64,000 bases of DNA. It comes from an uncultured bacterium. GTDB taxonomy: Bacteria > Omnitrophota > Omnitrophia > Omnitrophales > Aquincolibacteriaceae. The stretch lies in NCBI GenBank assembly GCA_964562525.1, contig CAZLTL010000001.1:104428-168427 (forward strand), given 5' to 3'. The notes below the pieces were generated by a model. That model ran no database searches. It was given only the letters and a program-made list of their open reading frames with translations, and was not told the DNA's origin. Numbering within the stretch: position 1 is the first letter of the stretch; each line of letters opens with the position of its first letter. Made by a program: the position numbers and the translations under genes. Shown here piece after piece: positions 7,287 through 40,781 of this stretch.

Positions 7287-8987
7287 TTAGTAACGGCGGC
7301 TGGCGAAACTAACGCCAAAACGCAAATCATTACGCACAAAATCTTGGTTCTCAGAGCTGTCTTGTTTGACGCTCTGAGCTTTACCGATCGCAAGCCACTC
7401 ACCAAAAATCTTTATCTTTGAAAGCCATTCGTTTTCCTTATGGCGCCAAGTACGGAAAGGCATCCAGCGCACGCCCGCGGAAACATAGTAAGTATTTTGG
7501 AAGTGAAAGGCATGCGCACTGTTCACTGAGCTTTCCAATCGTAAATAAGGCATCAATGCGATTTCATTGTTAATCGGATTATCCGGGAGAGGAATTCCGG
7601 GCAGCTTCACGCCCAACATCAAAGAGTTGCTGAAAGTCCAAGCATGAGAGTATTTGTCCAAACTAAAATCAGTTTTTGCCCAATGGTAATCCGCAAAATA
7701 TTCGCCCCATACAAATTCCTGCAAATACTCCGTAAAATTCTCCGGAGCAGGCTGGTTTAAATCGGGAAGCTCAACTCCAAACTCATAAAACAACTGCACG
7801 CCTGCTTGCAAATCCCAGTCATGCGCAGATATTTCATCTTTGATATTTTTGCGGTCGCCATACTTAACAAAAAAACGATAATTACGCACCCACTCTAAAA
7901 GTTTAATATTGCCGAAAGGACGGTAATTCGCGAGCCAATGATTGCGCGCCAAAGGCCGCCACTCCACACCCGCGAAGAAATCTGCTTTGCTTTTAAAATC
8001 TTCCGAAACGGCTTCCATTGAAACCGTCGATTCCAAAAAGGGATCCAAAGTATTCAGCGGAAAACGAATCCCGCGAAACACCACACGATTCGACCAATAG
8101 CCGACTTGACTATTGAACTTATTGTCTTCGAGGTTGGTTTTACGCCACGAAGTTTCGCCGAATGACTGCCACAAGACTGGCTCGCCCGCACCCTCACCTT
8201 GAAATGGCCCCCAAATTTGTTCACCTAAATCCATTTGATCAGCCCATTTCAAAAAGAGGTCTTCTTCTTTGCGCTGATTGGAAACATAACTCTGATCAAA
8301 CTGAGTGACATATTCATCTTCAATTTCAACAGGCACCTGAGCTTCCGCGACCATCTCATCAAAGTTGCCGCCAATTTGAACCGCCTGCTGACGTGTTTGA
8401 GAGATTAAATTCTTTGCGTCTTCCACGCTCGAAAAAGCTTTATCACCCACCCAATAAAGTGTAGGGCCTCCTCCGGGCAATGCCATCTTTCGGATTTCAA
8501 CCCCGCCCTCATCGGAAGTTTCTAAGTTGTTTTGAACATAGTCATTCACATCATCAATGGTTTTGAGACCTTTTAAATAACGGGTCTTCACAACTTCACC
8601 GCCGAAATCGGTAATCACCGCGTATTCTGCGTCCATTTTCCGGGAAGGGGTTTGCACGACCGTGAACCCCTGAACATCGGTCGCAATCGACTCTGATTTT
8701 TTAGAAGGCGCGGCGAAAAAAGTCTTGGCAAAAAGATTGGGCTTAGGAATTACTTTTTCTTTTTTGACGGTTAATTTAGGTTCGGCGGCAGTTTCCAAAA
8801 CCGAACCGGATGGCGGAGAAGCGCTATCCTTGCTCATCGCAGCTTCTAATTCTTGATCAAGATTGAGATTGGCGGGTTTGAGATCAGCTTGATCGGATAG
8901 AAGTGTTTGGGCAAAAAGCGGACCTGAAAAAAGAGCGAAAACAAGAGCTCCGCTCAACAATAAAAGATTGTATCGTTTATTTTTCAT
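7287..8987 (-). CDS. Hypothetical outer-membrane protein (566 aa, signal peptide, W/Y-rich beta-rich C-terminus ending RRY)
   Basis: It has a signal peptide, MKNKRYNLLLLSGALVFALFSGPLFAQT. The C-terminal half has an amphipathic alternating aromatic pattern and ends in an aromatic residue. I recognise no catalytic motif. Confidence 0.5.
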   Translation of the reverse strand: MKNKRYNLLLLSGALVFALFSGPLFAQTLLSDQADLKPANLNLDQELEAAMSKDSASPPSGSVLETAAEPKLTVKKEKVIPKPNLFAKTFFAAPSKKSESIATDVQGFTVVQTPSRKMDAEYAVITDFGGEVVKTRYLKGLKTIDDVNDYVQNNLETSDEGGVEIRKMALPGGGPTLYWVGDKAFSSVEDAKNLISQTRQQAVQIGGNFDEMVAEAQVPVEIEDEYVTQFDQSYVSNQRKEEDLFLKWADQMDLGEQIWGPFQGEGAGEPVLWQSFGETSWRKTNLEDNKFNSQVGYWSNRVVFRGIRFPLNTLDPFLESTVSMEAVSEDFKSKADFFAGVEWRPLARNHWLANYRPFGNIKLLEWVRNYRFFVKYGDRKNIKDEISAHDWDLQAGVQLFYEFGVELPDLNQPAPENFTEYLQEFVWGEYFADYHWAKTDFSLDKYSHAWTFSNSLMLGVKLPGIPLPDNPINNEIALMPYLRLESSVNSAHAFHFQNTYYVSAGVRWMPFRTWRHKENEWLSKIKIFGEWLAIGKAQSVKQDSSENQDFVRNDLRFGVSFASRRY

Positions 8988-9838: not shown

Positions 9839-10719
9839 TTGATTAACCCCATTTTTTTAAGCGAAGCGGCTAATTTTTCTTCATTCGACCTTTGCATCGG
9901 ACAAAGCGGCAAACGGAACTCCAAGTGAAGCTTACCCATCAACCCCAAAGCGGTTTTGACGGGAATCGGGTTGGTTTCAATAAAAAGAATTTGCGCCAAA
10001 TCCAAATGCTTTTCATGCAACGCGCGCGCCTTCTTCATATTGCCCTTCATCGACTCATGCACCAAGTCACGATGAAGCTTGGGAACAATATTTGCGGTAA
10101 CAGAAATCGCACCCACTGCACCGAGTGCAATCATCGGAAAAGTAAGCGAATCTTCTCCCGAAAGAATCGGCAAGGAACAACGCTGTTGAATTTGATCGAC
10201 TTGCGCCAAACTTCCGCTGGCTTCTTTTATCGCAACCACAGTATCAATTTTTGACAAGCGCGCGACCGTATCGGGAGCCATCGAAACACCGGTGCGTCCC
10301 GGAACATTGTAAAGAATGATCGGCAAATCCACTTTGCGGGCCAAAAACTCATAATGTTTATACAAGCCTTCCTGTGTCGGCTTATTGTAATAAGGAGTGA
10401 CAACTAACGCACCATCCGCGCCAATTTTCTTAGCATGCTGCATCAGCCCAAGTGATTCCGCAGTGTTGTTCGAGCCTGCGCCGCAAACGACCGGCACACG
10501 TCCATTCACATAATCCACGACAAACGACATCACGTTGCGGTGTTCTTCATGTGAAAGCGTCGCAGACTCACCGGTTGTGCCGCAGGGAATAATCACGTCG
10601 GTACCGTTTTTGATTTGGAAATCAATCAAACCTCTGAGAGCCTTCTCATCCACCTGATTATTTTTAATCGGCGTCACAAGCGCAACCATTGATCCCTGAA
10701 ACTTCGGCTTCTTACTCAT
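9835..10719 (-). CDS. dapA: 4-hydroxy-tetrahydrodipicolinate synthase
   Basis: Carries DapA/NAL-family motifs VALVTPIK...GTTGESATLSHEEH and YNVPGRTG. It overlaps dapB by 4 nt. Confidence 0.9.
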   Translation of the reverse strand: MSKKPKFQGSMVALVTPIKNNQVDEKALRGLIDFQIKNGTDVIIPCGTTGESATLSHEEHRNVMSFVVDYVNGRVPVVCGAGSNNTAESLGLMQHAKKIGADGALVVTPYYNKPTQEGLYKHYEFLARKVDLPIILYNVPGRTGVSMAPDTVARLSKIDTVVAIKEASGSLAQVDQIQQRCSLPILSGEDSLTFPMIALGAVGAISVTANIVPKLHRDLVHESMKGNMKKARALHEKHLDLAQILFIETNPIPVKTALGLMGKLHLEFRLPLCPMQRSNEEKLAASLKKMGLIK

Positions 10720-11528
10720 AGTTTGATTTTCCCTTCATAAACCACATGCGCGCCGCCCTCAAGAAAAGCCTTGAGCGGGCGCCCCGCATCGTCAAATTCA
10801 AAAGACACTTTCAAAACTTCGCCGCCGCGGGTCAAAACTTCCACGGGCGACTTTGCGTTAAACTTTAAAACAGCCGCAAGCGCGGATGCCGTTGAACCTG
10901 TCCCACAAGCTTGCGTTTCATCTTCGACGCCGCGTTCATAAGTGCGCACCGTAATTTTAGAACCGCCGCGATGCTTTACAAAATTGACATTCGTTCCTTT
11001 AGGCGCGAATTGCTTATGGGTGCGAATCGCGCGACCCCATTCAAAAATGTTAGCCTTTTCCAGCTTGTCCCAGAAAATCACAACATGCGGAACGCCGGTA
11101 TTAAAAAAGTCATAATCAAAATCTTCACCGCAAACCGAAACTCCGCCATCCCGCTCCAAAATCTGCGGCTGAATCAATTGAACACGAACTTTGTCTTTTT
11201 TTACTTCCGCCGCAATAATTCCGGAAATAGATTCAAATTTCATTTTGGACGGAAACTTAAGAATGTCGTGCGCAAATCGCCCAACACAACGGAAACCATT
11301 TCCGCAAGCTTCAGCCTCGCTACCGTCCGAGTTGAAAATGCGGGCTTTAAAATCAGCCTTGGAAGACTTTTCAATCACAAGCACACCATCCGCACCGATA
11401 CCGGTATGCACAGGGCAAACCCGTGCGGCAAACGCTTTGAGATTGGAAATCGACTTCTTGCGGTGATCAATCACCACAAAGTCATTTCCGGACGCCTGTA
11501 TTTTGTAAAACTGGATTGTTTTTGCCAT
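10716..11528 (-). CDS. dapF: Diaminopimelate epimerase
   Basis: Carries SGNDFVVID and the two active-site cysteine contexts ACGNGFRC and QACGTGSTA. Confidence 0.9.
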   Translation of the reverse strand: MAKTIQFYKIQASGNDFVVIDHRKKSISNLKAFAARVCPVHTGIGADGVLVIEKSSKADFKARIFNSDGSEAEACGNGFRCVGRFAHDILKFPSKMKFESISGIIAAEVKKDKVRVQLIQPQILERDGGVSVCGEDFDYDFFNTGVPHVVIFWDKLEKANIFEWGRAIRTHKQFAPKGTNVNFVKHRGGSKITVRTYERGVEDETQACGTGSTASALAAVLKFNAKSPVEVLTRGGEVLKVSFEFDDAGRPLKAFLEGGAHVVYEGKIKL

Positions 11529-11648
11529 CTGTATTCATTTTTTGAAGTCATCAAGTGACTTCAAAAGGAGGGGTATTGTAGCAAATCGGCTTACCAATTT
11601 AAGCTAAATTTTAGAGGTTTTTCAAAGATTTTCTCTATACAAACAACA

Positions 11649-11763
11649 AACCGCTCAAAAGACTTGGATGTCAGGCACTCACGAGCGCCCGCGGAGGCGT
11701 AGTGAAACCTACGCCGCACAAGGAAGCGAAGGGAGCAACGCCGCAACCGAGCTCTTTTCAGCG
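11649..11763. repeat. REP/BIME-like structured intergenic element, copy a (odc|dapF spacer)
   Basis: Core is GAGCGCCCGCGGAGGCGTAG-TGAAAC-CTACGCCGCACAAGGAAGCGAAG...GCAACGCCGCA. The flanks CCGCTCAAAAGA and TCTTTTCAGCGG are mutually complementary. It shares this core with copies b-e. Confidence 0.6.
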
Positions 11764-11765
11764 GT

Positions 11766-12953
11766 TTAAATAAGGACGATTTTGGCGGGGGGAAAACCGT
11801 TAAAATTGGGGGTCGCGCTGGCAGAAGAATAAGCGCCTATGTTCTTCACATAGACGATATCTCCCATATTTAGTTCCGGCATTTCGCAATTTTCCGCCAA
11901 AGTATCAAGAGAATCGCAAGTCGGTCCGGCCAAAGTACACATAAACTTAGGTCCGCGGCGCAAGGTTTTGAACTCATATTTACAGTGATCAAAAATCATG
12001 CCCGAGAAATCCTGGTAAATTCCGTCATTTAAATAATAGTAACTCTTGTTGTTGCGGAAAGACCGGCCCACAACCTTGGTCACTAAAATTCCGGATGGCC
12101 CCGCAAAGAAACGGCCGGGTTCAGCGATAATTTTGACATTGCTGTCAAAAAGTTTCTTCAACTGCTTGCGAATTTGCGCGGCCATACGTTCGAAGTTAAT
12201 TCCGATTTCATTGTCAAAATGCTGAATCGGAAATCCCCCGCCGATATCGACGATTTTGAGCGGCATTCCATTCGATTCCGCTTCTTCAAAAATCGCGGCC
12301 GTAATTTCAAGCGCTTGTAAATAATTTTCCACGTTCTTGGACTGTGAGCCCACATGAAAACTAATTCCCTTCGGAACCAGCCCCAAAGCTTTGGCTTTCT
12401 TTAAAAGAAAGAAAGCCTGCTCGGGATCGCAACCGAATTTAAGCGAAAGCTGAACCACACTGCCGAGGTTCGCCACTTTAATACGCGCAACCACATGCGC
12501 GCCGGGATAATTCTCAGCAATTTTATAAAGCTCGGTTTCACTGTCAAAAGTCATCAACTTCACGCGCCGGCGTTTCGCGGCTTGAATATCCTCTTCTGAT
12601 TTAATCGTGTTCGCAAAAATTACTTTGCTCGGCTCCGCGCCCAATTTTAAAACCAATTTCATTTCTGCCGCGCTGGCAACGTCAAAAGACGCGCCAAGAT
12701 CAACGAATTCTTTGATGATTTTCGGATGCGGGTTGGCCTTAATCGCGTAATAAGGAGTGACTTCGGGAAGACATTTACGGAACCGTTCGTATTGCTTTTG
12801 CAAAGCAGAACGGCGAATCAGCATGAAAGGCGTCTTGTGCTTTTTGAGCATCGAACGAACCAAGTCGTCGATACCAAAAGGCGCGGGACCTTTCGATTTA
12901 CTGGCTAACAGCGGAGGCTCTTGTTGAGGAGCTGATTCTTCTTTCATAGGCAC
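11766..12953 (-). CDS. Eukaryotic-type (alanine-racemase-fold, Fold III) ornithine decarboxylase; likely the putrescine-forming step for the adjacent homospermidine synthase
   Basis: The PLP-lysine context is PYYAIKANPHP. FANTIK, MTFDSETEL, SFHVGSQ, IVDIGGGFP and IAEPGRFF are ODC-like. GPTCDSLD carries the catalytic Cys as in eukaryotic ODC GPTCDGLD. The end GAYSSASATPNFNGF also matches ODC. The ATG at 12953 overlaps hss by 56 nt; an alternative start lies at 12851 (MLKKHK). Confidence 0.8.
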   Translation of the reverse strand: MPMKEESAPQQEPPLLASKSKGPAPFGIDDLVRSMLKKHKTPFMLIRRSALQKQYERFRKCLPEVTPYYAIKANPHPKIIKEFVDLGASFDVASAAEMKLVLKLGAEPSKVIFANTIKSEEDIQAAKRRRVKLMTFDSETELYKIAENYPGAHVVARIKVANLGSVVQLSLKFGCDPEQAFFLLKKAKALGLVPKGISFHVGSQSKNVENYLQALEITAAIFEEAESNGMPLKIVDIGGGFPIQHFDNEIGINFERMAAQIRKQLKKLFDSNVKIIAEPGRFFAGPSGILVTKVVGRSFRNNKSYYYLNDGIYQDFSGMIFDHCKYEFKTLRRGPKFMCTLAGPTCDSLDTLAENCEMPELNMGDIVYVKNIGAYSSASATPNFNGFPPAKIVLI

Positions 12954-14418
12954 CTAGTCTCTCCTGATGATGGATGAGAAACGTTGTAAATTGCCAGACA
13001 TCCTCTGGTCTCGGTTGCGGGACATTGAACTTGGTATATTTAATATTGGCATTTTTCATCGGCGTCCAATCCACCGCTTCAGAAAAAATCGGCTTAATAT
13101 AAGGCTTCACAATTTTAAGAATCGGCTCATGATCCACATCATCCGGCATCAAAAACCCTTTGCGCGGATTATCAATCATCCAAATCACCGCTGCCACCAT
13201 CGAAATCGCAACCTGCAAAGTCGTTGCTTGCTGACCGGGAGCCAGCTTGCGGGCCTCATCAATAGTTAAACAGCTGCCGCACCACCAAGAGTTAAAATCA
13301 TGCCCCATCAAAAGCACGCCCAGCTCATCTTTACCGGCAATAATTTCATCATTCATGATGCGCTGCTTTTCCTGCAATTGAAACTGGCGCATCTCAAGTT
13401 CATGCATGGAGTTGATCGCGGAGTCAGACGGGCAATACGCATAATGCACGGTCGGACGATAAACCGGAACGCCGCGTTCCCACACCGTCAAACGATCCGA
13501 AATACTGAAAGCTTCACCGTGACGAATCACCATGCCGGTAATTTCACCGCTCGGAACCCAAGAACGCACCCAGGTTTTCATACCGATCGTATTTAAGCAA
13601 ATTTGATTCTTAGGACCCTCGTCATAAAAGAAAGCCCCGTCGGGAATCAGCTTCTCATGCGTTCCCCAGCCCATTTCCGCCGGCGCCACACCCTCTTCAT
13701 AAAAACCCTCGATACTCCAAGTGTTCACAAACTCATTCATTTGCTTGGGCTTGTCGGTAATTTGCGAATCGCGCTCGCTGATGTGAATGGTTTTAACGCC
13801 GGTCAACTGCGCCAGCTTAGAAAAATTCTTGTCTTCCAACGCCTGAACAAGCTGCTTCTTGCGCTTATCCTTAGGCTTCACTTTTAAAATCTTTTCACCG
13901 ATTTGGATCAGCGCGTGTTTTGTGAAATGGGAAACAAGCCCGGGATTAGCGCCATGATCAACAATCGCGGTTGCACCGGGCTGAGTCGCCCAGGGATCGG
14001 TAATTTTACGCAACCGCATATGGCGGTTATAAAGCGTATAACGGCGCGGGTCATCGCGAATTTCATCTCCGTACGGATCCCACTCTTCAACCGAGGTGTT
14101 GGAATAGAGCACGTCATGCTGCCGGCACCAGGTTAAAATCGCGCCGCAATCAATGTTCCATGCAAGGTCAATAATCAAATCGCCTTTACCGACATATTTG
14201 GAAAGCAGCTTGGAATAATTTTCGGGCGCGATGCGGTCAACAACATAATTGACGCCGCGCTTTAAAGCGGATTTAACGCGGTGACGATTATCAACAAAAT
14301 CCATGATCGTGATTTTTTCCGCCGGCATATCCATATGCTTAAGCAGAAGCGGAATGAGACACTGTGAAACAGAGCCGCATCCGATCACCAAGATTTTGCC
14401 GTTAAATTTCTTTTTCAT
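12898..14418 (-). CDS. hss: Homospermidine synthase (bacterial HSS, CANSDH/saccharopine-dehydrogenase-like)
   Basis: It has an NAD-binding start KILVIGCGSVSQ. Long collinear matches to characterised bacterial HSS include VNTWSIEGFYEEGVAPAEMGWGTHEK, YRPTVHYAYCPSDSAINSMHE, DELGVLLMGHDFNSWWCGS and APGQQATTLQVAISMVAAVIWMIDNP. Confidence 0.85.
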   Translation of the reverse strand: MKKKFNGKILVIGCGSVSQCLIPLLLKHMDMPAEKITIMDFVDNRHRVKSALKRGVNYVVDRIAPENYSKLLSKYVGKGDLIIDLAWNIDCGAILTWCRQHDVLYSNTSVEEWDPYGDEIRDDPRRYTLYNRHMRLRKITDPWATQPGATAIVDHGANPGLVSHFTKHALIQIGEKILKVKPKDKRKKQLVQALEDKNFSKLAQLTGVKTIHISERDSQITDKPKQMNEFVNTWSIEGFYEEGVAPAEMGWGTHEKLIPDGAFFYDEGPKNQICLNTIGMKTWVRSWVPSGEITGMVIRHGEAFSISDRLTVWERGVPVYRPTVHYAYCPSDSAINSMHELEMRQFQLQEKQRIMNDEIIAGKDELGVLLMGHDFNSWWCGSCLTIDEARKLAPGQQATTLQVAISMVAAVIWMIDNPRKGFLMPDDVDHEPILKIVKPYIKPIFSEAVDWTPMKNANIKYTKFNVPQPRPEDVWQFTTFLIHHQERLGAYERRISSSTRASAVSQ

Positions 14419-14477
14419 TTTTATATGTCAGATTTATAACCTGCTGGCGGTTGAGCAACGCTCAGAGCCAAAATAAA

Positions 14478-14507
14478 ACAGAATTGAAATATACAATAAC
14501 TGCACTC
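14478..14507 (-). promoter_or_regulatory. Sigma70-type promoter for hss-odc: TTGACA, 16-nt spacer, TATATT
   Basis: The minus strand reads TTGACActgagtgcagttattgTATATT about 60 nt upstream of the hss ATG. This is a near-consensus -35 and -10. Confidence 0.5.
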
Positions 14508-14523
14508 AGTGTCAATAAAACTG

Positions 14524-14853
14524 TTAGCTTTTTTTCGCGAAACGGCGACTGCGGTGCTCCGAAACTTCCGCGGCGGTAAAACCGACTGCCTGTTGCGGTG
14601 GCAAAGCGCCCAAAATCTGTTCTAACCGGCGCAAAATCCGGCGTTGCGGCTGAGAAAGTTCATAGCGTGAGTAAAATCCTGACAAAAAACCGAGCGCTTC
14701 GGCGGCAGGAATGCGAAAAACATCGGAAGTTGCCGTACGGCAGCACGCAAAACCGGTGATCAATTCAGACCAAAGTTTTTCACTCACCGGAAAGCCGTCT
14801 TCATTTTGAAAATCAGGCACCGCGTCGGAAGTAAAAAGAAAAACCTGACGCAC
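14524..14853 (-). CDS. Hypothetical 109-aa protein; GTG start directly abuts the lysA stop
   Basis: The ORF fills the lysA-hss spacer with no gap. Its codon usage resembles its neighbours. It has no recognisable motif, no internal Met and no Shine-Dalgarno. Confidence 0.3.
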   Translation of the reverse strand: MRQVFLFTSDAVPDFQNEDGFPVSEKLWSELITGFACCRTATSDVFRIPAAEALGFLSGFYSRYELSQPQRRILRRLEQILGALPPQQAVGFTAAEVSEHRSRRFAKKS

Positions 14854-16113
14854 TTACTTGAGATAAGCCGGAATCACTTCCCCGGCAAGCAATTCGTCCA
14901 CGGACTCGCGTTTTTTAACCACGCTAAAAGAAGAGCCCTTCACCAAAACTTCAACCGCGCGACCGCGCGTATTGTAATTGGAAGACATCACATATCCGTA
15001 GGCTCCCGCTGAAAAAACCGCGATCAAATCACCGCGCTTCAGTTCGGGCAATTTACGTCCCTTGGCGAGATAATCGCCGCTTTCACACACCGGTCCGACC
15101 ACGTCGTAAACCACGGTCTTGGACTTTGCTTTTTTGCTCACAGGCTCAATGCGATGATAGGCATCGTAAAAAGAAGGGCGAATCAAATCATTCATGGCCG
15201 CGTCAATGATCGCGAAATTCTTCACATCGGTTTCTTTCACATAAATTACCTGTGCCGCGAGAATACCGCTATTCGCGGAAATAAAACGACCCGGCTCCAT
15301 AATGATTTTGAGCCCGGTCTTTTTCAGAATCGACGCGACTTTCTTGGCATAATCCGACGCCTTCTGGGGCTTTTCATGATTATAAGTCACGCCTAATCCG
15401 CCGCCGATATTAAGAAACTCCAACGCAACTCCGTCTTTTTGCAAATCAGCGATAAACTTTGTCACTTTATTGAACGCGTGCACAAACGGAGTTCCGCTTT
15501 CAATCTGAGAACCGATATGCACATGCAAACCCGCAAAACGCACCCAAGGATACTGATCGCGGTTGATAAAAGCTTCTTCCGCCGTCAGCAAATCAATCCC
15601 GAACTTGCTTTCTTTTTTTCCCGTTGAAATATGGCGGTGCGTACGCGGATCCACATCAGGATTGATACGCAAAGAAATCGTCGCTTTGCGCTTCAATTTT
15701 TCCGCCACCGCATTAATCGCGGCAATTTCAGGAATGGACTCCACATTGAAAAATAAAATTCCATAACGGATGGCCGCGGCGATTTCTTCATCCGTTTTAC
15801 CAACACCGGCAAAGACAATTTTTTCGCCGGGACAACCCGCGCGCTTCGCCCGTTCAAGCTCCCCACCCGAGACAATATCAAGCCCGCTGCCTTGCTTCAC
15901 AAGCGCGCGCAAAACAGCGATGTTGGAATTGGCTTTCATCGAATAGCAAATTAAAGGATTCACCGATTTAAAAGCCAGCTGCAATTCCTTCAGGCGGCCC
16001 GTAAAAGCAGCATGGCTATATATATAGGCAGGCGTTCCGGCGGCTTTGACAATATCCGCAACGCGCACACCTTCGCAAAAAAGCTCATTCTTCTTATAAG
16101 TAAATTCAGACAT
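14854..16113 (-). CDS. lysA: Diaminopimelate decarboxylase
   Basis: YDVVGPVCESGD is the LysA signature. The PLP-lysine context is CYSMKANSN, with HVHIGSQ also present. The start MSEFTYKK is preferred (GGAGA Shine-Dalgarno 7 nt upstream); the track ORF extends to 16164. Confidence 0.9.
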   Translation of the reverse strand: MSEFTYKKNELFCEGVRVADIVKAAGTPAYIYSHAAFTGRLKELQLAFKSVNPLICYSMKANSNIAVLRALVKQGSGLDIVSGGELERAKRAGCPGEKIVFAGVGKTDEEIAAAIRYGILFFNVESIPEIAAINAVAEKLKRKATISLRINPDVDPRTHRHISTGKKESKFGIDLLTAEEAFINRDQYPWVRFAGLHVHIGSQIESGTPFVHAFNKVTKFIADLQKDGVALEFLNIGGGLGVTYNHEKPQKASDYAKKVASILKKTGLKIIMEPGRFISANSGILAAQVIYVKETDVKNFAIIDAAMNDLIRPSFYDAYHRIEPVSKKAKSKTVVYDVVGPVCESGDYLAKGRKLPELKRGDLIAVFSAGAYGYVMSSNYNTRGRAVEVLVKGSSFSVVKKRESVDELLAGEVIPAYLK

Positions 16114-16136
16114 GGGGTTCTCTCCGAGCCGCGGGA

Positions 16137-17537
16137 CTAAGCCCGGGATAGTTTCTTTTTCCAAAATTGGATTTGTTGTTTGACCAAGCGAGGACTGGTA
16201 CTGCCAAGCGTTTGTTTGCCCTCCACCGACTTTTCAGCGTTGAAAAGCGCAAACGCGTCACGGCCCGCGGCGGGGGCGAATGCCTGCAATTCTTTTAAAT
16301 CAAAATCACGGATTTTTTTTCCGGTTTTAACCGAATGCGCCACAATTTTACCGACCGCGTGATGCGCATCCGTAAAAAGCACACCCTTGCGAACCAAATA
16401 TTCAAGCAAATCAGTCGCGTAAAGGCCGTCATCCTGTAATTGCTTTTCCGCAGCCTGTTTTTGAAACTTTGCGGTTTGAATCGTGAGACTTAAAACTTCA
16501 AGCGCCAGCATCGTTTCAGCCAAGGCGAAAAAAACACCGGGTTTGTCTTCCTGCAAATCGCGGTTATAAGCGAGGGGCAAGCCCTTTTGCACAACAAGCA
16601 TTGCCTGCAAAATCCCGAAAATGGATCCGCTCTTCCCTCTTACCAGCTCAAAGACATCCGGATTTTTCTTCTGCGGCATTAAGCTCGAGCCTGTAGAAAA
16701 ACGATCATCCAAATCCACATAACCAAAAAATTCCGAATTCCACAAAACAAAATCTTCGGATAGGCGCGACAAATGCACCCACACCGTTGAAATACCGGCG
16801 AGCAATTCCGCTAAAAAAGCACGATCACTTGTCGCAGCCATGCTATTCATGGCCAACTTCGAAAAACCTAGCTCTTTCGCAAGAAATTTACGGTCAAAGG
16901 GCAAAGCCGACCCTCCAAGCGCCGCGGAACCGAGCGGCAAAACATCCAGCCGTTTCAAAACATCACTCAGCCGATCAATGTCTTCTTCCAGCATTTCAAC
17001 ATAAGCAAGCAGATGATGCGCGAGTAAAACTGGCTGTGCTTTTCTTAAATGCGTGAGACCGGGAATAATCAGATCAGCATTATTCTCAGCTTGCTGCGTT
17101 AATGCTTTTTGAAGCTTACGGACATAAGCCTGCAATTGAGCAACTTGTCCTTTTAAGTAAACACGCGTAGAAGTCACAACTAAATCATTGCGGCTCCGGC
17201 CCGTATGCAGTTTTTTTGCGACGGGACCGCAAGCTTTTTCGAGCAAAGTCTGAATCAGCGAATGCACATCTTCGACATCGGAATATTCGCAGCAAGCCTG
17301 ACACTCATCCCATTCTTTCTCAATTTTATCGAGGCCTCTGGCAAGCTTCTTCAATTCGGCGGAAGAAACAACCTTCGCCTTGGCGAGCATTTTAATCCAC
17401 GCGCGATTCACTTGAATTTCAGAATAAAAAAGCGCGCTGTCAGTCGCCAGCGAATAGCTAAATTCCTGCAAAGCGGGATGCATGCCCTGCTCAAATCTTC
17501 CGCCCCACAACTTTTTCTGCCCGTTTTCTTTTTTCAT
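16137..17537 (-). CDS. argH: Argininosuccinate lyase
   Basis: It starts KLWGGRF. The fumarate-lyase signature GSSLMPQKKNPD is present. Confidence 0.92.
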   Translation of the reverse strand: MKKENGQKKLWGGRFEQGMHPALQEFSYSLATDSALFYSEIQVNRAWIKMLAKAKVVSSAELKKLARGLDKIEKEWDECQACCEYSDVEDVHSLIQTLLEKACGPVAKKLHTGRSRNDLVVTSTRVYLKGQVAQLQAYVRKLQKALTQQAENNADLIIPGLTHLRKAQPVLLAHHLLAYVEMLEEDIDRLSDVLKRLDVLPLGSAALGGSALPFDRKFLAKELGFSKLAMNSMAATSDRAFLAELLAGISTVWVHLSRLSEDFVLWNSEFFGYVDLDDRFSTGSSLMPQKKNPDVFELVRGKSGSIFGILQAMLVVQKGLPLAYNRDLQEDKPGVFFALAETMLALEVLSLTIQTAKFQKQAAEKQLQDDGLYATDLLEYLVRKGVLFTDAHHAVGKIVAHSVKTGKKIRDFDLKELQAFAPAAGRDAFALFNAEKSVEGKQTLGSTSPRLVKQQIQFWKKKLSRA

Positions 17538-17562: not shown

Positions 17563-17689
17563 TAAAAAATTCTCAAAATGATGCGGATGCCAGGCGCGCC
17601 CGAGTCATCGAGGAGGCGTATTTACTGATACGCCGCACGATGGTGACGAAAGGCGCAACGCCGCAGACGCTCATTTTCAGAATTTTTAC
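17563..17689. repeat. REP/BIME-like structured intergenic element, copy b (argG|argH spacer)
   Basis: Core is CGAGGAGGCGTA-TTTACTGA-TACGCCGCACGATGGTGACGAAAGGCGCAACGCCGCAGACG. The flanks TAAAAAATTCTCAAAATGA and TCATTTTCAGAATTTTTAC are complementary. The 3' arm overlaps the argG stop codon. Confidence 0.6.
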
Positions 17690-18879
17690 TTGCCCATGCC
17701 TTCGTAAGGAAGCCCCCAAAGCTTCATAAACCCGGCAGCCGCAGTTCTGTCAAACACATCGCCCTTGGAATAAGTTGCCAGTTTATGCGAATACAGTGAA
17801 TACTTTGACTCACGCCCAGCAGGGAGCACATGCCCCTTCTCCAACTTAAATTTGATTTTTCCGGTTACGCGCTTTTGATTTGAGGCAAAAAAAGCATCAA
17901 GCGCATTCTTCAGCGGCGAAAACCAAAGCCCGAAATAAACCAGCTCCGAATACTTTTCGGAAAGAACACGCTTGTAATGCAGAAACTCGCGGTCCATCAC
18001 AAGACCTTCAAGCTCTTCATGCGCTTTAAGCAATACTTCCGCAGCCGGCGCTTCATAGATTTCTCGGCTCTTGATTCCGACCAACCGGTTTTCAACCATA
18101 TCAAAACGGCCGACGCCGTTACGACCGGCAATCACATTCAATTTTTCAATCAACGCGGCAAAGCCCATTTTCTTACCGTTAAGCTTTACAGGTACACCGT
18201 TCACAAAATCAATCGTGACATATTCATGCTTCGGAGTTTTGGAAACATGGCGCGTCATTACATAAGCGTCTTCCGGCGGTTCCTGCCAAAGGTCTTCCAG
18301 AATTCCGGCTTCTATCGCGATACCCCAAATATTTTTGTCGATCGAATAGGGGCTTTTCTTCGTCGCACCGATGGGGATTTTATGCTTAATCGCGTAATCA
18401 ATTTCCTCTTCGCGGGTATTAAATTCCCACTCGCGTAAAGGCGCGATGATTTCAAGCTTTGGATTGAGCGTACGAACGCCGACTTCAATGCGAACCTGAT
18501 CATTGCCTTTACCCGTGCAGCCATGCGCCACAGCGGTTGCGCCCTCTTTTTCAGCGACTTCCGCGAGCCGCTTCGCGATCAAAGGACGACCGAGCGCGGT
18601 TGCAAGAGGATATTTGCCTTCATATCGCGCATGCGCCCACAGAGCTGGCAAAATAAAGTCATCGGCGAACTCTTGCTTCAAATCTTCAATGTAAACTTTT
18701 TTCGAACCGGCCGCGTTGGCACGTTTTCTCAAAATTTTAGGGTCGCTGACTTCCCCTAAAAACGCGGAGAAGCAGATCACTTCCGCGTTATATTTATCTT
18801 TGAGCCATTTCGCGATACAAGATGTATCCAGCCCGCCCGAATACGCCAACACAATTTTTTTATTTGCAGACTTTTTCAT
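17686..18879 (-). CDS. argG: Argininosuccinate synthase
   Basis: It has the PP-loop AYSGGLDTS. The remainder is collinear with ArgG. Confidence 0.92.
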   Translation of the reverse strand: MKKSANKKIVLAYSGGLDTSCIAKWLKDKYNAEVICFSAFLGEVSDPKILRKRANAAGSKKVYIEDLKQEFADDFILPALWAHARYEGKYPLATALGRPLIAKRLAEVAEKEGATAVAHGCTGKGNDQVRIEVGVRTLNPKLEIIAPLREWEFNTREEEIDYAIKHKIPIGATKKSPYSIDKNIWGIAIEAGILEDLWQEPPEDAYVMTRHVSKTPKHEYVTIDFVNGVPVKLNGKKMGFAALIEKLNVIAGRNGVGRFDMVENRLVGIKSREIYEAPAAEVLLKAHEELEGLVMDREFLHYKRVLSEKYSELVYFGLWFSPLKNALDAFFASNQKRVTGKIKFKLEKGHVLPAGRESKYSLYSHKLATYSKGDVFDRTAAAGFMKLWGLPYEGMGK

Positions 18880-19805
18880 GACACTTCCCCTTGTTCCAAT
18901 AAATAAAGAATAATGGCTTTTTGAATATGGAGTCGATTTTCAGCCTGATCAAAAACGATCGACCGCTTGCTTTCCATGATGTCATCCGTAATTTCTTCGC
19001 CGCGATGCGCGGGCAAACAATGCATCACTAGCGCTTCTTTAGAAGCGTGTTTCATCAAATTACGGTTAACCTGAAAACCTTCAAATTCGCGCATTTTCAT
19101 TTCGCGGATTTCTTCTTCACCCATACTCACCCAAACATCGGTATAAACAATTTGCGAATTTTTTACGGCCGCTTTGGGATCACGGCATTCTTCAATTTTG
19201 CCCTTTGTCTTTTTGCAGATCTGCCGCGCGAGATCAATCACCTTTTTGTAAGGGCGGTTATTTCTCGGCGTTGAGAACTTGAGATGCGTTCCAAGCTTGG
19301 CGGCCGTCAGCATCAATGAATTTAAAACATTGTTGCCGTCGCCAACAAATGCCAATGTCGCGTTCTTCACATCGCCAAATTTTTCTTCAATCGTCATGAA
19401 ATCAGCCAATGCCTGACAAGGATGCTCCATGTCCGAAAGACCGTTAATCACCGGCTTTTTGAAATGGCGGCGAAATTCCGTAATCGTCCAATGCGAAAAA
19501 GTTCTCAGTACCGCGGCAGAGAAATACCGCGATAAAGTCCGCGCCACATCGCGCACTTCTTCCCGCTGTCCGAGCTTTTCATCCTGCTGATTGATATACG
19601 CCGCGCTGCCGCCCATGGTCACCATCGCGGTTTCAAACGAAACGCGAGTACGGGTCGAAGGCTTTTCAAAAATCAACCCCAAAACTTGTCCTTCCATCGC
19701 TTTGCGGAAATCACGCGGATGCTCTTTGATCACGCGCGCCTGATGCATGAGCCGGCGGATGGAGTCGGGCTTGAGTTCGTTGATTGATACGAGTGACCGT
19801 GCCAT
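18876..19805 (-). CDS. argF: Ornithine carbamoyltransferase
   Basis: It has the carbamoyl-phosphate site STRTR. HCLPAHRGEE is also present. Confidence 0.9.
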   Translation of the reverse strand: MARSLVSINELKPDSIRRLMHQARVIKEHPRDFRKAMEGQVLGLIFEKPSTRTRVSFETAMVTMGGSAAYINQQDEKLGQREEVRDVARTLSRYFSAAVLRTFSHWTITEFRRHFKKPVINGLSDMEHPCQALADFMTIEEKFGDVKNATLAFVGDGNNVLNSLMLTAAKLGTHLKFSTPRNNRPYKKVIDLARQICKKTKGKIEECRDPKAAVKNSQIVYTDVWVSMGEEEIREMKMREFEGFQVNRNLMKHASKEALVMHCLPAHRGEEITDDIMESKRSIVFDQAENRLHIQKAIILYLLEQGEVS

Positions 19806-19808: not shown

Positions 19809-21011
19809 TTATCCTTTAGAGGCAAGTGACTGGAATACGCTATCCAGAATACCGTAAGCCTTTTCAATTTCTTTCGTTTTGACTGTAAGTGCCGGCATAA
19901 TGCGCAGCACATCACCCTGTGTCGAATTAATAATAAGCCCCTGCTTTAAAGCTTCCGCGGCATAAGGATCGGAATTAACCGAAAGCTTGAGTGCACGCAT
20001 CACACCCATCCCGCGTACTTCTTCTATCACGGAGTATTTCTTTTTCAGCTCTTCCAGCTTCGCACCCAAAATATCGCCCATCTTCACGGCTTGATTCAAG
20101 AGCTTTTCTTTTTTGATCGTCTCAAAAACGGCCAATGCCGCGGCGCAAACTAATGGGTTGCCGCCGTAAGTCGAGCCATGCGTTCCGGGAACAAAAAGTT
20201 CTTTCTTCACGCGGCGATTCAAGACCATGGCCCCTATGGGAACACCGGAACCCAGCGACTTTGCCAGCGTCATAATATCAGGCTCAATACCGTAATGCTG
20301 ATAGGCATACATCTTGCCAGTACGCCCCATACAGGTTTGCACTTCATCCAAAACAAGCAGCAAATCTTTTTCATCGCAAAGCTTTCTGAGGCCCTGCATA
20401 AATTCTTGGGTTGCGACACGAATACCGCCTTCGCCCTGAACCGGCTCGAGCATAATGCCCACTGTTTTGGGCGTAATTAATTTTTTAACTGATTCCAAAT
20501 CATTGAATTCTGCATAGCAAAACTTCTCAACCAAAGGATAAAAACCATGGTGGATTTTATCTTGGCCTGTCGCGGACATCGCACCCATGGTTCTGCCATG
20601 AAATGATTTCGTAAAAGTAATGATTTCATTCCGTCCCGCATCGGAACCATAAATGCGGCAAAACTTAATCGCAGCTTCATTGGCTTCTGCGCCGCTATTA
20701 CCAAAAAAAACACGCCCCGGAAAACCATTTTTTACGATCGCCTGCGCCAACTTAGCTTGCGGCAAAATATGAAAATTGTTTGCGACATGAACAATCTTCT
20801 TGGCTTGATTCTTGATGGCATGTACTACATTGGGATGAGCATGGCCCAAACCGGAAACACCCCAGCCCGGAAAAAAATCAAGATACTCTTTGTTTTCCAA
20901 ATCCCAAACACGCGAACCCTTGCCTTTAACCAGGCAAATCGGATTGCGCTTGTAAGTTGGAAGAACAAAGTCTTCGTACAGTTTTTCTACATCAGCAGTT
21001 TTCATAATCAA
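19809..21011 (-). CDS. argD: Acetylornithine aminotransferase (class III PLP aminotransferase)
   Basis: The GNSGAEANEAAIK, LDEVQTCMGRTG and THGSTYGGNP motifs are present. Confidence 0.88.
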   Translation of the reverse strand: MIMKTADVEKLYEDFVLPTYKRNPICLVKGKGSRVWDLENKEYLDFFPGWGVSGLGHAHPNVVHAIKNQAKKIVHVANNFHILPQAKLAQAIVKNGFPGRVFFGNSGAEANEAAIKFCRIYGSDAGRNEIITFTKSFHGRTMGAMSATGQDKIHHGFYPLVEKFCYAEFNDLESVKKLITPKTVGIMLEPVQGEGGIRVATQEFMQGLRKLCDEKDLLLVLDEVQTCMGRTGKMYAYQHYGIEPDIMTLAKSLGSGVPIGAMVLNRRVKKELFVPGTHGSTYGGNPLVCAAALAVFETIKKEKLLNQAVKMGDILGAKLEELKKKYSVIEEVRGMGVMRALKLSVNSDPYAAEALKQGLIINSTQGDVLRIMPALTVKTKEIEKAYGILDSVFQSLASKG

Positions 21012-21014: not shown

Positions 21015-21869
21015 TCAGTGAACAAACTCAGTACCGACACCCTTGTCGGTAAAAATTTCGAGCAATAGAGGATGCTTCATGCGGCCGTCAACAATGTGGG
21101 CTTTTTTAACACCATGGCGTAAAACTTCAAGACAAGAGTCAACCTTCGGAATCATACCGCCACTAATCACACCTGAGGCTTTTAACTTTTCAACTTCACT
21201 GATCGTCAAAGTTGGAATCAAAGACGATTCATCTTTCGGGTCCTGCATCACGCCCTTCACATCCGTTAGCATGATCATTTTAGGCACCTTCAACGCCATC
21301 GCGATATTACACGCAGCTTCATCCGCGTTCACATTGTAGGTTTGTCCCGCTTTATCAATTCCGACGGGATAAATAATCGGAATAATCCCCGCATCCGTCA
21401 TTTGCCGAATCGGAAAAATATTCACCTCCGCCACATCGCCGACAAAGCCCACATCGCCGTTTTGCGTGTGCCGCGTGACATGCAAAATATCACTGTCATG
21501 CCCCGAAAGCCCGACTGCGCTGCCACCGATTAAATTAATGTCCGCGATCAACTCGCGGTTGATTCCCGCCAAAGTTTCCACCACAACTTGAATCGCAGCT
21601 TCATCGGTTACGCGCAAACCGTTCACAAACTTGGAAGGCAGGCCCTTTTTTTCCATGTTTTCGGTAATATGCTTTCCGCCGCCATGCACCAAAATCGGCT
21701 TAATGCCGACGAATTGCATAAAAACCAAATCCTGCAAAATATGTTTACGCACCTCGCCGTGACGGAGCGCCGCCCCGCCGTACTTCACGAGAATTTCTTT
21801 CCCGCGAAAACTCTTGATGTACGGTAACGCTTCAATCAGCGTGCTGGCTTTTTCAATCAAATGTTCCAT
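21015..21869 (-). CDS. argB: Acetylglutamate kinase
   Basis: VKYGGAA, ILVHGGG and NVNADEAA (the amino-acid-kinase fold) are present. Confidence 0.9.
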   Translation of the reverse strand: MEHLIEKASTLIEALPYIKSFRGKEILVKYGGAALRHGEVRKHILQDLVFMQFVGIKPILVHGGGKHITENMEKKGLPSKFVNGLRVTDEAAIQVVVETLAGINRELIADINLIGGSAVGLSGHDSDILHVTRHTQNGDVGFVGDVAEVNIFPIRQMTDAGIIPIIYPVGIDKAGQTYNVNADEAACNIAMALKVPKMIMLTDVKGVMQDPKDESSLIPTLTISEVEKLKASGVISGGMIPKVDSCLEVLRHGVKKAHIVDGRMKHPLLLEIFTDKGVGTEFVH

Positions 21870-31720: not shown

Positions 31721-31835
31721 AAATAAGTCTGATCAAAAAGCTTCAGATGCAAGACGCAAGCAAGCGCCCGCGGAGGCGTAGTGAAAATCTACGCCGCACA
31801 AGGAAGCGACGCTTGCAACGCTGCAGATGAACTTT
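31721..31835. repeat. REP/BIME-like structured intergenic element, copy c (thiG|leuB spacer)
   Basis: Core is GCGCCCGCGGAGGCGTAG-TGAAAAT-CTACGCCGCACAAGGAAGCGACGCTTGCAACGCTGCAGATGA. The flanks CTGATCAAAAAGCTTCAGATGCA and TGCAGATGAACTTTTTCATCAG are complementary. Confidence 0.6.
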
Positions 31836-31839
31836 TTCA

Positions 31840-39530: not shown

Positions 39531-40781
<1,251 letters not shown>

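What the first reader, a model, noticed from the sequence alone, without database searches (positions are those of the whole stretch)
11766..14507. Eukaryotic-type ornithine decarboxylase plus homospermidine synthase as a promoter-equipped polyamine module wedged between lysA and dapF
The 506-aa protein is an unmistakable bacterial homospermidine synthase, with long collinear matches including VNTWSIEGF, YRPTVHYAYCPSD and DELGVLLMGHDF. The adjacent 395-aa protein is a Fold-III decarboxylase closest to eukaryotic-type ODC (AIKAN lysine, GPTCDSLD cysteine, IAEPGRFF). Together they would convert ornithine to putrescine to sym-homospermidine. They sit inside the arginine operon, which makes ornithine, and next to lysA/dapF. 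They have their own near-consensus promoter (TTGACA-16-TATATT at 14478-14507), and the hss/odc reading frames overlap by 56 nt. The pairing and placement suggest ornithine from the ArgJ cycle is channelled directly into homospermidine. The HSS also has a ~20-aa C-terminal extension relative to the characterised enzyme.
Basis: partly seen in the sequence, partly recalled or inferred. Interest (0 to 1): 0.6.

Follow-up and report, generated by a model that had tools for sequence, protein, structure and literature searches.

The report
Homospermidine synthase plus ornithine decarboxylase operon
An uncultured Omnitrophota bacterium carries an ordinary, already-described two-gene unit that should turn ornithine into putrescine and then into the polyamine homospermidine. 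The only fresh detail is that the second gene starts inside the tail of the first.

Summary
On the minus strand, a 506-aa homospermidine synthase (HSS, 12898-14418) is followed by a 393/395-aa alanine-racemase-fold ornithine decarboxylase homologue (ODC, 11766-12947/12953). They lie between lysA-orf109 and dapF-dapA-dapB, downstream of argCJBDFGH, in a Candidatus Omnitrophota genome.

HSS matches solved HSS structures (E 1e-99) and keeps all eight catalytic or substrate residues. The decarboxylase groups with L/ODC and eukaryotic ODC (277-234 bits), not with DAP decarboxylase (127 bits) or SpeA. It keeps every ODC active-site residue, including the Asp332 equivalent.

The promoter TTGACA-16-TATATT is at 14515-14488, not 14478-14507, and is conserved in seven relatives.

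The "C-terminal extension" and the "56-nt overlap" are one feature. In 24 related loci the HSS tail carries a Shine-Dalgarno-like run and the +1-frame start codon of odc.

None of this is new in kind. Adjacency of hss to an AR-fold odc in diverse bacteria is published (JBC 2026). The pair is found in 57 of 77 loci across Omnitrophota, Margulisiibacteriota and Acidobacteriota, and databases already name these proteins. The lysA/dapF position holds in only about a quarter of relatives, so "channelling" is not supported.

Ornithine versus lysine versus arginine preference remains inferred. Interest is low.

The parts
14488..14515 (-). Sigma-70-type promoter of hss-odc: -35 TTGACA (14515-14510), 16-nt spacer, -10 TATATT (14493-14488)
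   Evidence: 11 of 12 consensus match, read directly. TTGACA-N16-TA(G/A)TAT is conserved upstream of hss in L002-L005 and L080-L082, while the surrounding leader varies in sequence and length (-73 to -153 from the ATG). A related TGTAGTATTC -10 block lies upstream of hss in L035, L038, L040, L042 and L067. Caveat: another 11/12 match lies inside the odc coding sequence (12547..12520), so the match alone proves nothing.
14419..14487 (-). Short 5' leader of hss, with an A-rich stretch and no Shine-Dalgarno before the ATG
   Evidence: Sequence. The fold is weak (dG -15.8, z -1.66). No Rfam family matched.
12898..14418 (-). hss: NAD-dependent bacterial homospermidine synthase (EC 2.5.1.44 type), 506 aa
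   Evidence: PDB 2PH5 E=1.1e-99, 6Y87 7e-90, 4PLP 2.5e-87, and only HSS entries were hit. Pfam Sacchrp_dh_NADP plus Sacchrp_dh_C. N158, E215, W234, E242, H300, E302, Y326 and D364 correspond to B. viridis N162, E210, W229, E237, H296, E298, Y323 and D361, and E111 to E117. All are invariant in 59 homologues.
12898..12964 (-). hss 3' tail (the lineage-specific C-terminal extension), which also carries the odc translation start region: GGAGAG 12964-12959, GTG 12953, ATG 12947, hss stop TAA 12900-12898
   Evidence: In 24 related long-tail loci a +1-frame start codon sits 43 or 49 nt after the Trp codon of the WQF motif, preceded by a purine-rich run, and the overlap is 32-62 nt. The tail motif ..FLVDHKERxxAYE...ETAKV is seen in predicted HSS proteins.
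11766..12953 (-). odc: PLP-dependent alanine-racemase-fold ('human-type') ornithine decarboxylase homologue, 395 aa from GTG 12953 or 393 aa from ATG 12947
   Evidence: Pfam Orn_Arg_deC_N 6.8e-65 plus Orn_DAP_Arg_deC 3.5e-21. PDB: 5GJM 3e-81, 2PLJ 1e-74, human ODC 4e-68, PBCV-1 ADC 3e-64, DAPDC no better than 9e-36. K72, D91, H200, G238-240, E278, R281, D322, C346, D347 and Y375 correspond to ODC K69, D88, H197, G235-237, E274, R277, D332, C360, D361 and Y389. Identity is 40% to SrL/ODC, 36% to VvL/ODC, 36% to human ODC and 26% to the window's own LysA.
11647..11768 (-). Structured REP-like repeat element directly after (and including) the odc stop codon, followed by a U-rich stretch; possible terminator or mRNA-end stabiliser
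   Evidence: Fold dG -53.8 kcal/mol, z -3.0. Three further copies lie in other intergenic gaps of the window.
14524..14853 (-). orf109: conserved small protein of unknown function between lysA and the hss promoter. It is context, probably the last gene of the arg-lysA transcript.
   Evidence: 18 homologues with invariant FYSRYELSQPQRR and EVSEHRSRR motifs. No Pfam or PDB match. It is always found as lysA-orf109-hss-odc.
14854..16164 (-). lysA (diaminopimelate decarboxylase), upstream neighbour
   Evidence: NCBIfam TIGR01048 503.5 bits, cut-off 297.9.
10716..11528 (-). dapF (diaminopimelate epimerase), downstream neighbour
   Evidence: NCBIfam TIGR00652 254.3 bits, cut-off 114.65.

Best explanation
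A two-gene polyamine operon, hss-odc, in a Candidatus Omnitrophota genome.

Transcription starts at its own sigma-70-type promoter (14515-14488). This is inferred from a conserved consensus.

hss is translated from an A-rich leader that lacks a Shine-Dalgarno sequence. odc is translated from an ATG (12947) or GTG (12953) that lies in the +1 frame, 50-56 nt before the hss stop codon. A GGAGAG Shine-Dalgarno sequence sits inside the codons of the HSS C-terminal tail. The two genes are therefore probably translationally coupled (inferred).

The decarboxylase, with PLP, converts L-ornithine to putrescine. HSS, with bound NAD+, condenses two putrescines to sym-homospermidine plus ammonia. Both steps are inferred from homology and conserved active-site residues and have not been assayed.

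The position next to the arginine and lysine biosynthesis genes is a lineage-specific arrangement and is not required for function.
For: - HSS shows full-length homology to three solved HSS enzymes (E 1e-99 to 2.5e-87) and hits nothing else in the PDB.
- All eight residues that Krossa et al. 2016 (PMC4725965) list for substrate binding and catalysis, plus E117, are present and are invariant in 59 homologues.
- The N-terminal GxGxxS Rossmann motif is present, with a Pfam NADP-binding domain at 4.6e-23.
- The decarboxylase is closest to L/ODC and eukaryotic ODC and far from DAPDC and SpeA. It falls below the NCBIfam lysA cut-off, whereas the true lysA next door passes.
- All ODC catalytic residues are kept, including the Asp332 equivalent D322 and the Cys360/Asp361 equivalents.
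- hss is followed directly by odc on the same strand in 57 of 77 loci from three phyla.
- Published work states that hss adjacent to an AR-fold odc marks the ornithine to putrescine to homospermidine route, and that B. abortus ODC plus HSS behave this way (PMC13625781).
- No agmatinase was detected among the 26 window ORFs scanned against Pfam/NCBIfam, by a from-memory SpeB tblastn probe over the whole window and within 8 kb of hss in the 76 related loci, or in more than one of the 100 immediate flanking ORFs of the 56 loci with an adjacent hss-odc pair.
- The promoter is conserved in seven relatives.
- The odc start region embedded in the hss tail is conserved in 24 loci.
- GC content of the pair equals that of its flanks at 0.47.
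Against: - No enzyme assay or polyamine profile exists for any Omnitrophota member.
- The two best structural matches of the decarboxylase are dual lysine/ornithine decarboxylases.
- The closest relatives L003 and L005 (90% HSS identity) lack the overlap: hss ends early and odc starts 131-185 nt later. Coupling by overlap is therefore dispensable.
- A second 11/12 promoter match inside odc shows that such matches occur by chance.
- Omnitrophota are reported to lack complete PLP biosynthesis (PMC10407285), which raises the question of the cofactor supply for this enzyme.
Confidence: 0.82

Rival explanations
1. The decarboxylase is a bifunctional lysine/ornithine decarboxylase, as in Selenomonas ruminantium and Vibrio vulnificus. 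The module would then make cadaverine as well as putrescine, which would fit its position between lysA and dapF. HSS might then also form aminobutylcadaverine.
For: - The best PDB matches are SrL/ODC (277 bits, 40% identity) and VvL/ODC (255 bits), ahead of human ODC (234 bits).
- The neighbours lysA, dapF, dapA and dapB make lysine.
- The position equivalent to S. ruminantium P54 is Pro (P75), as in the L/ODC enzymes.
- B. viridis HSS converts longer diamines at lower rates (PMC4725965).
Against: - At the positions equivalent to S. ruminantium A44-G45-V46, the protein has V-T-P, as in human ODC (RVTPFYAVK) and not the L/ODC residues. The role of these residues is recalled from Takatsuka et al. 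2000 and could not be checked here.
- In about three quarters of relatives the pair is not next to lysine genes.
- Published hss-linked AR-fold enzymes without speB act on ornithine (PMC13625781).
Confidence: 0.12
2. The ODC homologue has been neofunctionalised to an arginine decarboxylase, as in Rhodophila globiformis, Ca. Fonsibacter and PBCV-1. Putrescine would then come from arginine via agmatine, which would fit its position just downstream of argH.
For: - Such enzymes exist in hss-encoding bacteria and cannot be recognised from overall similarity (PMC13625781 section 10; PMC9992855).
- PBCV-1 ADC scores only slightly below human ODC (221 versus 234 bits).
- The arginine pathway genes lie directly upstream.
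Against: - No agmatinase-family gene turned up among the window ORFs scanned, in a tblastn probe of the window and of 8 kb around hss in the 76 related loci, or next to the hss-odc pair. Published ADC cases have speB immediately upstream (PMC13625781).
- The Asp332 equivalent is Asp (D322). In PBCV-1 ADC it is Glu296 (own knowledge of Shah et al. 2007; not checked here).
- Only 64 kb of the genome could be inspected.
Confidence: 0.05
3. The 506-aa protein is not an HSS but another member of the saccharopine-dehydrogenase superfamily, such as carboxy(nor)spermidine dehydrogenase or lysine 6-dehydrogenase, acting with the decarboxylase in a different pathway.
For: Pfam reports only the generic Sacchrp_dh domains, and NCBIfam has no hit. 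Some NCBI records call the homologues 'saccharopine dehydrogenase domain-containing protein'.
Against: - The PDB search returns only HSS chains, 14 distinct sequences, collinear over residues 4-482.
- All HSS-specific catalytic residues are kept, including the cation-pi Trp229 equivalent.
- JGI and NCBI name many homologues homospermidine synthase.
Confidence: 0.02
4. The 50-56-nt +1 overlap serves programmed ribosomal frameshifting, which would yield an HSS-ODC fusion protein.
For: odc lies in the +1 frame relative to hss, and that frame is open from 12953 onwards.
Against: - odc has its own Shine-Dalgarno sequence and start codon at a conserved position.
- There is no known shift-prone motif at the hss stop.
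- No fused HSS-ODC protein appears among 120 close homologues or 150 family representatives.
- Relatives have the genes separated or overlapping by only 1-4 nt.
Confidence: 0.01

Closest known systems
hss plus AR-fold odc gene clusters of diverse bacteria (Michael laboratory, J Biol Chem 2026, PMC13625781; Brucella abortus ODC and HSS validated)
   Same: The same two enzyme families are adjacent on one strand. The same predicted route applies: L-ornithine to putrescine to sym-homospermidine. There is no speB in the cluster.
   Different: The host phylum is Omnitrophota. The order is hss first, then odc. odc starts 50-56 nt inside the hss 3' end, with its Shine-Dalgarno sequence inside the HSS tail codons. 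The pair is flanked by lysA-orf109 and dapF. Nothing has been assayed.
Solved bacterial homospermidine synthases: L. pneumophila 2PH5, P. aeruginosa 6Y87, Blastochloris viridis 4PLP/4TVB
   Same: Collinear over residues 4-482. All eight catalytic or substrate residues and E117 are identical, and the Rossmann GxGxx(G/A/S) motif is present.
   Different: There is a C-terminal tail of about 24 residues that the solved enzymes lack. B. viridis 'ionic slide' D94 is Asn here (Gly in L. pneumophila). The third Rossmann glycine is Ser.
Selenomonas ruminantium L/ODC (5GJM) and Vibrio vulnificus L/ODC (2PLJ); human and T. brucei ODC
   Same: The same fold and dimer-interface active site. K69, D88, H197, the GGG loop, E274, R277, D332, C360, D361 and Y389 equivalents are all kept. 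Identity is 36-40%.
   Different: The residues before the PLP lysine are V-T-P, as in eukaryotic ODC, rather than A-G-V as in S. ruminantium. There is a low-complexity N-terminal extension of about 20 residues encoded in the overlap. The eukaryotic antizyme/PEST regions are absent.
speB-odc(ADC)-hss clusters of Rhodophila globiformis and Magnetospirillum gryphiswaldense, and the PBCV-1 ADC-AIH-NCPAH-HSS pathway
   Same: An HSS is paired with an ODC-fold decarboxylase.
   Different: Those decarboxylases act on arginine and are accompanied by agmatinase or AIH/NCPAH. No such gene is found here or next to the related loci.
Pyruvoyl-dependent SpeDC ornithine decarboxylases of other Omnitrophota (Ca. 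Velamenicoccus archaeovorus, OLB16; PMC10407285)
   Same: The same phylum and the same first step, ornithine to putrescine.
   Different: An unrelated fold and cofactor (pyruvoyl, not PLP), linked there to spermidine synthesis rather than to HSS.

Membership tests
Bacterial homospermidine synthase (EC 2.5.1.44) | Full-length sequence homology to biochemically or structurally characterised HSS | tested here: met
   E=1.1e-99 (2PH5), 7.3e-90 (6Y87) and 2.5e-87 (4PLP) over residues 4-482. Only HSS chains were matched.
Bacterial homospermidine synthase (EC 2.5.1.44) | N-terminal NAD(P)-binding Rossmann domain with a GxGxxG-type loop | tested here: met
   Pfam Sacchrp_dh_NADP 4.6e-23, residues 9-151. 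G13-C-G15-S-V-S18 aligns with GFGSIG, GFGCVG and GLGTIA of the solved enzymes.
Bacterial homospermidine synthase (EC 2.5.1.44) | Substrate-binding and catalytic residues Asn162, Glu210, Trp229, Glu237, His296, Glu298, Tyr323 and Asp361 (B. viridis numbering; PMC4725965) | tested here: met
   N158, E215, W234, E242, H300, E302, Y326 and D364 are all identical and are invariant in 59 homologues.
Bacterial homospermidine synthase (EC 2.5.1.44) | Forms sym-homospermidine from two putrescines | not testable with these tools
   Needs expression and LC-MS.
Alanine-racemase-fold (fold III, 'human-type') ornithine decarboxylase | Two-domain architecture: PLP-binding barrel plus C-terminal sheet domain | tested here: met
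   Pfam PF02784 6.8e-65 (residues 50-284) and PF00278 3.5e-21 (residues 286-373).
Alanine-racemase-fold (fold III, 'human-type') ornithine decarboxylase | Catalytic residues: Schiff-base Lys69, Asp88, His197, Gly235-237, Glu274, Arg277, Cys360, Tyr389 | tested here: met
   K72, D91, H200, G238-240, E278, R281, C346 and Y375, from the alignment to human ODC 4ZGY.
Alanine-racemase-fold (fold III, 'human-type') ornithine decarboxylase | Closer to ODC and L/ODC than to DAP decarboxylase, SpeA-type ADC or carboxy(nor)spermidine decarboxylase | tested here: met
   277, 255 and 234 bits to L/ODC and ODC, against at most 127 bits to DAPDC and 30 bits to SpeA. NCBIfam lysA scores 190.3, below the 297.9 cut-off, and there is no nspC hit. 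Identity to the window's own LysA is 26%.
Alanine-racemase-fold (fold III, 'human-type') ornithine decarboxylase | Acidic residues that bind the distal amine of the diamine (Asp332, Asp361) | tested here: met
   D322 (MIFDHC) and D347 (GPTCDSLD).
Alanine-racemase-fold (fold III, 'human-type') ornithine decarboxylase | Preference for L-ornithine over L-lysine and L-arginine | tested here: inconclusive
   For ornithine: the V-T-P motif, Asp322, and no speB nearby. Against: the top structural hits are dual L/ODC enzymes. Validated ADC-type and ODC-type alphaproteobacterial sequences were not obtainable for a tree.
Published hss-odc homospermidine gene cluster (PMC13625781) | hss and AR-fold odc adjacent and co-oriented | tested here: met
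   Found in the window and in 57 of 77 loci.
Published hss-odc homospermidine gene cluster (PMC13625781) | No agmatinase (speB) in the cluster; its presence would indicate the ADC variant | tested here: met
   26 window ORFs were scanned against Pfam or NCBIfam with no arginase-family hit. No arginase family was found in more than one of 100 flanking ORFs. A tblastn search with an E. coli SpeB probe written from memory gave no significant hit in the window, and a single marginal one (L069, E=0.002, 79 residues) in the 76 loci.

The most novel reading that the evidence does not exclude
The long out-of-frame overlap is a selected control device rather than a neutral by-product. A conserved HSS C-terminal tail exists largely to house the Shine-Dalgarno sequence and start codon of odc. 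ODC synthesis would then be tied to ribosomes finishing hss, possibly in a polyamine-sensitive way. The clade-restricted small protein orf109 just upstream may act as a dedicated regulator of the module.
Probability: 0.1. Interest if true: 0.4.

Novelty: new member of a known kind. Interest (0 to 1): 0.15.

Why it matters
The finding predicts that this widespread, uncultured Omnitrophota lineage, and Margulisiibacteriota and Vicinamibacterales carrying the same pair, use sym-homospermidine made from ornithine as their triamine.

Other Omnitrophota studied so far use pyruvoyl-dependent SpeDC enzymes linked to spermidine synthesis. The phylum is also reported to lack complete PLP synthesis.

This adds a data point to the known patchwork of bacterial polyamine pathways and to the horizontal spread of the hss-odc pair. 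It does not open a new question. The embedded-start architecture is a tidy example of translational coupling but is of modest general interest.

Tried and rejected
- An AlphaFold2 model of HSS, built from a 59-sequence alignment, was meant to show whether the tail is disordered. Mean pLDDT was 65, with low confidence also in the catalytic domain, so it says nothing about the tail.
- Rfam at gathering thresholds found nothing in or around the module. The 5' leader fold is not significant (z -1.66).
- I compared amino-acid conservation of the overlap in both frames to decide which protein is under selection. Both are low and similar (0.27 for HSS, 0.31 for ODC; DNA 0.51), so the test is undecided.
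- I tried to obtain sequences of validated ODC-derived arginine decarboxylases and B. abortus ODC for a phylogeny. No supplementary files or sequences are held.
- I tried to verify the S. ruminantium specificity residues in Takatsuka et al. 2000. The paper is not held and no paper quotes the mutations. That argument therefore rests on memory.
- I searched for a function for orf109. There is no Pfam hit even at E=10 and no PDB profile hit. One JGI label, 'DsrC/TusE', is unsupported.
- I considered an HSS-ODC fusion or frameshift and rejected it.
- One PDB call was wasted on an E-value threshold that was too strict.


Full report
**What is there**

All genes in the region lie on the minus strand. 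The order is:
- argC (23089-24117), argJ (21869-23092), argB (21015-21869), argD (19809-21011), argF (18876-19805), argG (17686-18879), argH (16137-17537);
- lysA (14854-16164);
- a 109-aa ORF (14524-14853);
- a 105-bp gap;
- a 506-aa ORF (12898-14418);
- a 395-aa ORF (11766-12953);
- a 237-bp gap;
- dapF (10716-11528), dapA and dapB.

GC content is uniform at about 0.47 across the region. The window comes from Candidatus Omnitrophota. The HSS gene is 98% identical to that of contig DDUN01000023.1 of Ca. Omnitrophica bacterium UBA2337.

The overlap is 56 nt counted from the GTG at 12953, or 50 nt from the ATG at 12947, in the +1 frame.

Two corrections apply. The promoter-like TTGACA-16-TATATT is at 14515-14488, not 14478-14507. 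The pair lies after the arg genes and lysA, not inside the arginine operon.

**The 506-aa protein is a homospermidine synthase**

It aligns over residues 4-482 with the three solved bacterial HSS enzymes: L. pneumophila 2PH5 at E=1.1e-99, P. aeruginosa 6Y87 at 7e-90, and B. viridis 4PLP at 2.5e-87. It matches no other PDB protein.

Krossa et al. (PMC4725965) list Asn162, Glu210, Trp229, Glu237, His296, Glu298, Tyr323 and Asp361 as the residues for substrate binding and catalysis. The 4PLP chain index is offset by +2 from native numbering. After allowing for that, these residues correspond to N158, E215, W234, E242, H300, E302, Y326 and D364 here, and all are identical. Glu117 of the 'ionic slide' is also kept, as E111. 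All of these are invariant in an alignment of 59 homologues.

The Rossmann loop reads GCGSVS, and the third position varies (G/A/S) among the solved enzymes too. The family is large: 644 clusters at 50% identity have E<=1e-30. NCBI and JGI already label many Omnitrophota homologues 'homospermidine synthase'.

**The 395-aa protein is an ODC-type decarboxylase**

It has both Pfam domains. It scores 277 and 255 bits to the S. ruminantium and V. vulnificus lysine/ornithine decarboxylases. It scores 234 bits to human ODC and 221 bits to the ODC-derived PBCV-1 arginine decarboxylase. Against DAP decarboxylases it scores at most 127 bits, and against SpeA about 30 bits. It fails the NCBIfam lysA cut-off, which the neighbouring true lysA passes easily.

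Identity is 40% to S. ruminantium L/ODC, 36% to V. vulnificus L/ODC, 36% to human ODC and 26% to the window's own LysA. The equivalents of Lys69, Asp88, His197, Gly235-237, Glu274, Arg277, Asp332, Cys360, Asp361 and Tyr389 are all present.

**Substrate: ornithine is likely but not proven**

Three points favour ornithine:
1. The Asp332 equivalent is retained. From my own knowledge, the PBCV-1 ADC has Glu at this position.
2. The residues before the PLP lysine are V-T-P, as in human ODC. In S. ruminantium L/ODC they are A-G-V. That these positions govern lysine use is recalled from Takatsuka et al. 2000 and could not be verified.
3. No agmatinase gene was found. None of the 26 window ORFs scanned against Pfam or NCBIfam is one. 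A from-memory E. coli SpeB probe gave only one marginal hit (L069, E=0.002) across the window and the 76 related loci. No arginase family recurs among the 100 ORFs flanking the related hss-odc pairs.

The literature criterion is explicit. hss next to an AR-fold odc indicates the ornithine route, whereas a speB immediately upstream marks ODC homologues that have become arginine decarboxylases (PMC13625781 section 10). I put ornithine as the main substrate at about 0.8, dual lysine/ornithine activity at about 0.12, and arginine at about 0.05.

**The pairing is common and portable**

In 57 of 77 fetched loci, hss is followed directly by odc on the same strand. The loci come from Omnitrophota, Margulisiibacteriota/Saganbacteria, a few MAGs labelled Planctomycetia or Deltaproteobacteria, and Acidobacteriota (Vicinamibacterales).

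The flanking genes differ widely. Among 100 immediate neighbours there are 81 Pfam families, and the commonest, DapF, occurs only 8 times. LysA lies upstream in 10, and DapF downstream in 9, of about 50 Omnitrophota-type loci. The exact lysA-orf109-hss-odc-dapF order is confined to the window's own narrow clade. The placement therefore does not argue for substrate channelling.

**The promoter is probably real**

The 11/12 consensus match alone is weak evidence. The 13-kb region scanned has as many promoter-like sites as shuffled sequence (15 against 14.7), and a second 11/12 match lies inside odc.

Conservation is the stronger argument. TTGACA-N16-TA(G/A)TAT is conserved upstream of hss in L002-L005 and L080-L082, although the leader around it varies in sequence and in length. 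More distant relatives keep a TGTAGTATTC -10 block.

**The C-terminal extension and the overlap are one feature**

Omnitrophota-type HSS proteins are about 500 aa long and end ..FLVDHKERxxAYE(8-15 variable residues)ETAKV. The DNA of this tail carries three things:
- a purine-rich run (GGAGAG here, 12964-12959);
- a +1-frame start codon 43 or 49 nt after the Trp codon of the WQF motif (ATG at offset 49 in 15 loci; GTG or ATG at offset 43 in 11);
- the first 10-20 codons of odc.

All but one (L014) of the 25 long-tail loci examined have this layout, with overlaps of 32-62 nt. Amino-acid conservation across the overlap is low in both frames (0.27 and 0.31), so both protein ends look like weakly constrained tails.

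Other relatives end HSS right after the homologous core (FLVK*, FLMER*). In these, odc starts within a few nucleotides or overlaps by 1-4 nt. L003 and L005, at 90% identity, have lost the overlap.

The likely meaning is translational coupling of odc to hss. The overlap is conserved in a large clade but is dispensable. hss itself has no Shine-Dalgarno sequence, only an A-rich leader.

**Downstream end**

The odc stop codon lies in the first arm of a 120-nt structured element (dG -53.8, z -3.0), which is followed by GUUGUUUGU. This element belongs to a repeat family with three more intergenic copies in the window and further copies at other sites in relatives. It may act as a terminator or a stabiliser, but it is not specific to the module.

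**Comparison with what is known, and verdict**

The unit matches the published hss-odc cluster type (PMC13625781), and both proteins pass every sequence-level membership test that could be run. It differs in four ways: host phylum, the embedded odc start, the short HSS tail, and local synteny.

It is a new member of a known kind. I score interest at 0.15.

Noticed in passing
window 11647-11768, 17572-17680, 31763-31839, 40696-40773 (all minus strand, intergenic): A REP-like repeat family of about 80-120 nt with the conserved core CTTCGCTTCCTTGTGCGGCGTAG..TTCACTACGCCTCCGCGGGCGCTCG. The copy after odc folds strongly (dG -53.8, z -3.0). Copies sit at different intergenic sites in relatives (L005, L080, L002, L082), so the element appears mobile.
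   Followed up: partly
window 14524-14853 (-): orf109 is a genuine conserved small protein. It has 18 homologues with invariant FYSRYELSQPQRR and EVSEHRSRR motifs, and no Pfam or PDB match. It is found only in the order lysA-orf109-hss-odc. One JGI record calls a homologue 'DsrC/TusE family', which nothing here supports.
   Followed up: partly
L045, L047-L049, L051-L054, L070 (Vicinamibacterales/Acidobacteriota); L032 (Saganbacteria): These genomes carry two HSS paralogues 1.5-3 kb apart (about 50% identical to the query), with only the second followed by odc. Four upstream neighbours of hss in the whole neighbour set are amino-acid kinase family proteins.
   Followed up: no
L078 6460-6612 and L079 991-1143: A 50-aa ORF is called directly upstream of hss and abuts it in one sub-lineage, replacing the simple leader seen in the window. 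It could be an upstream or leader ORF.
   Followed up: no
window 14419-14440 versus 12945-12964: hss has no Shine-Dalgarno sequence (an A-rich ACATATAAAAATG, as in relatives), whereas odc has a strong GGAGAG. The two genes of one operon appear to use different initiation modes.
   Followed up: partly
neighbours of hss-odc in the related loci (alignment A1): Four of 100 flanking ORFs are GNAT acetyltransferases, which could be polyamine N-acetyltransferases.
   Followed up: no
P0264 (783 aa), P0341 (766 aa), P0400 (735 aa) from the representative search: Some HSS homologues carry an N-terminal extension of about 300 aa with no Pfam domain. One has a C-terminal SET domain fused to a partial HSS C-domain. 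No HSS-ODC fusion was seen.
   Followed up: partly
window 12520-12547 (-): A second near-consensus sigma-70 match (TTGACA-16-TAAAAT, 11/12) lies inside the odc coding sequence. It is most likely chance, and it is a useful caution for promoter calls made by eye.
   Followed up: no
window 1834-7206 and 7287-8987 (-): A 1790-aa protein with a signal-peptide-like N-terminus, and a 566-aa protein, lie just downstream of dapB. Neither was analysed.
   Followed up: no
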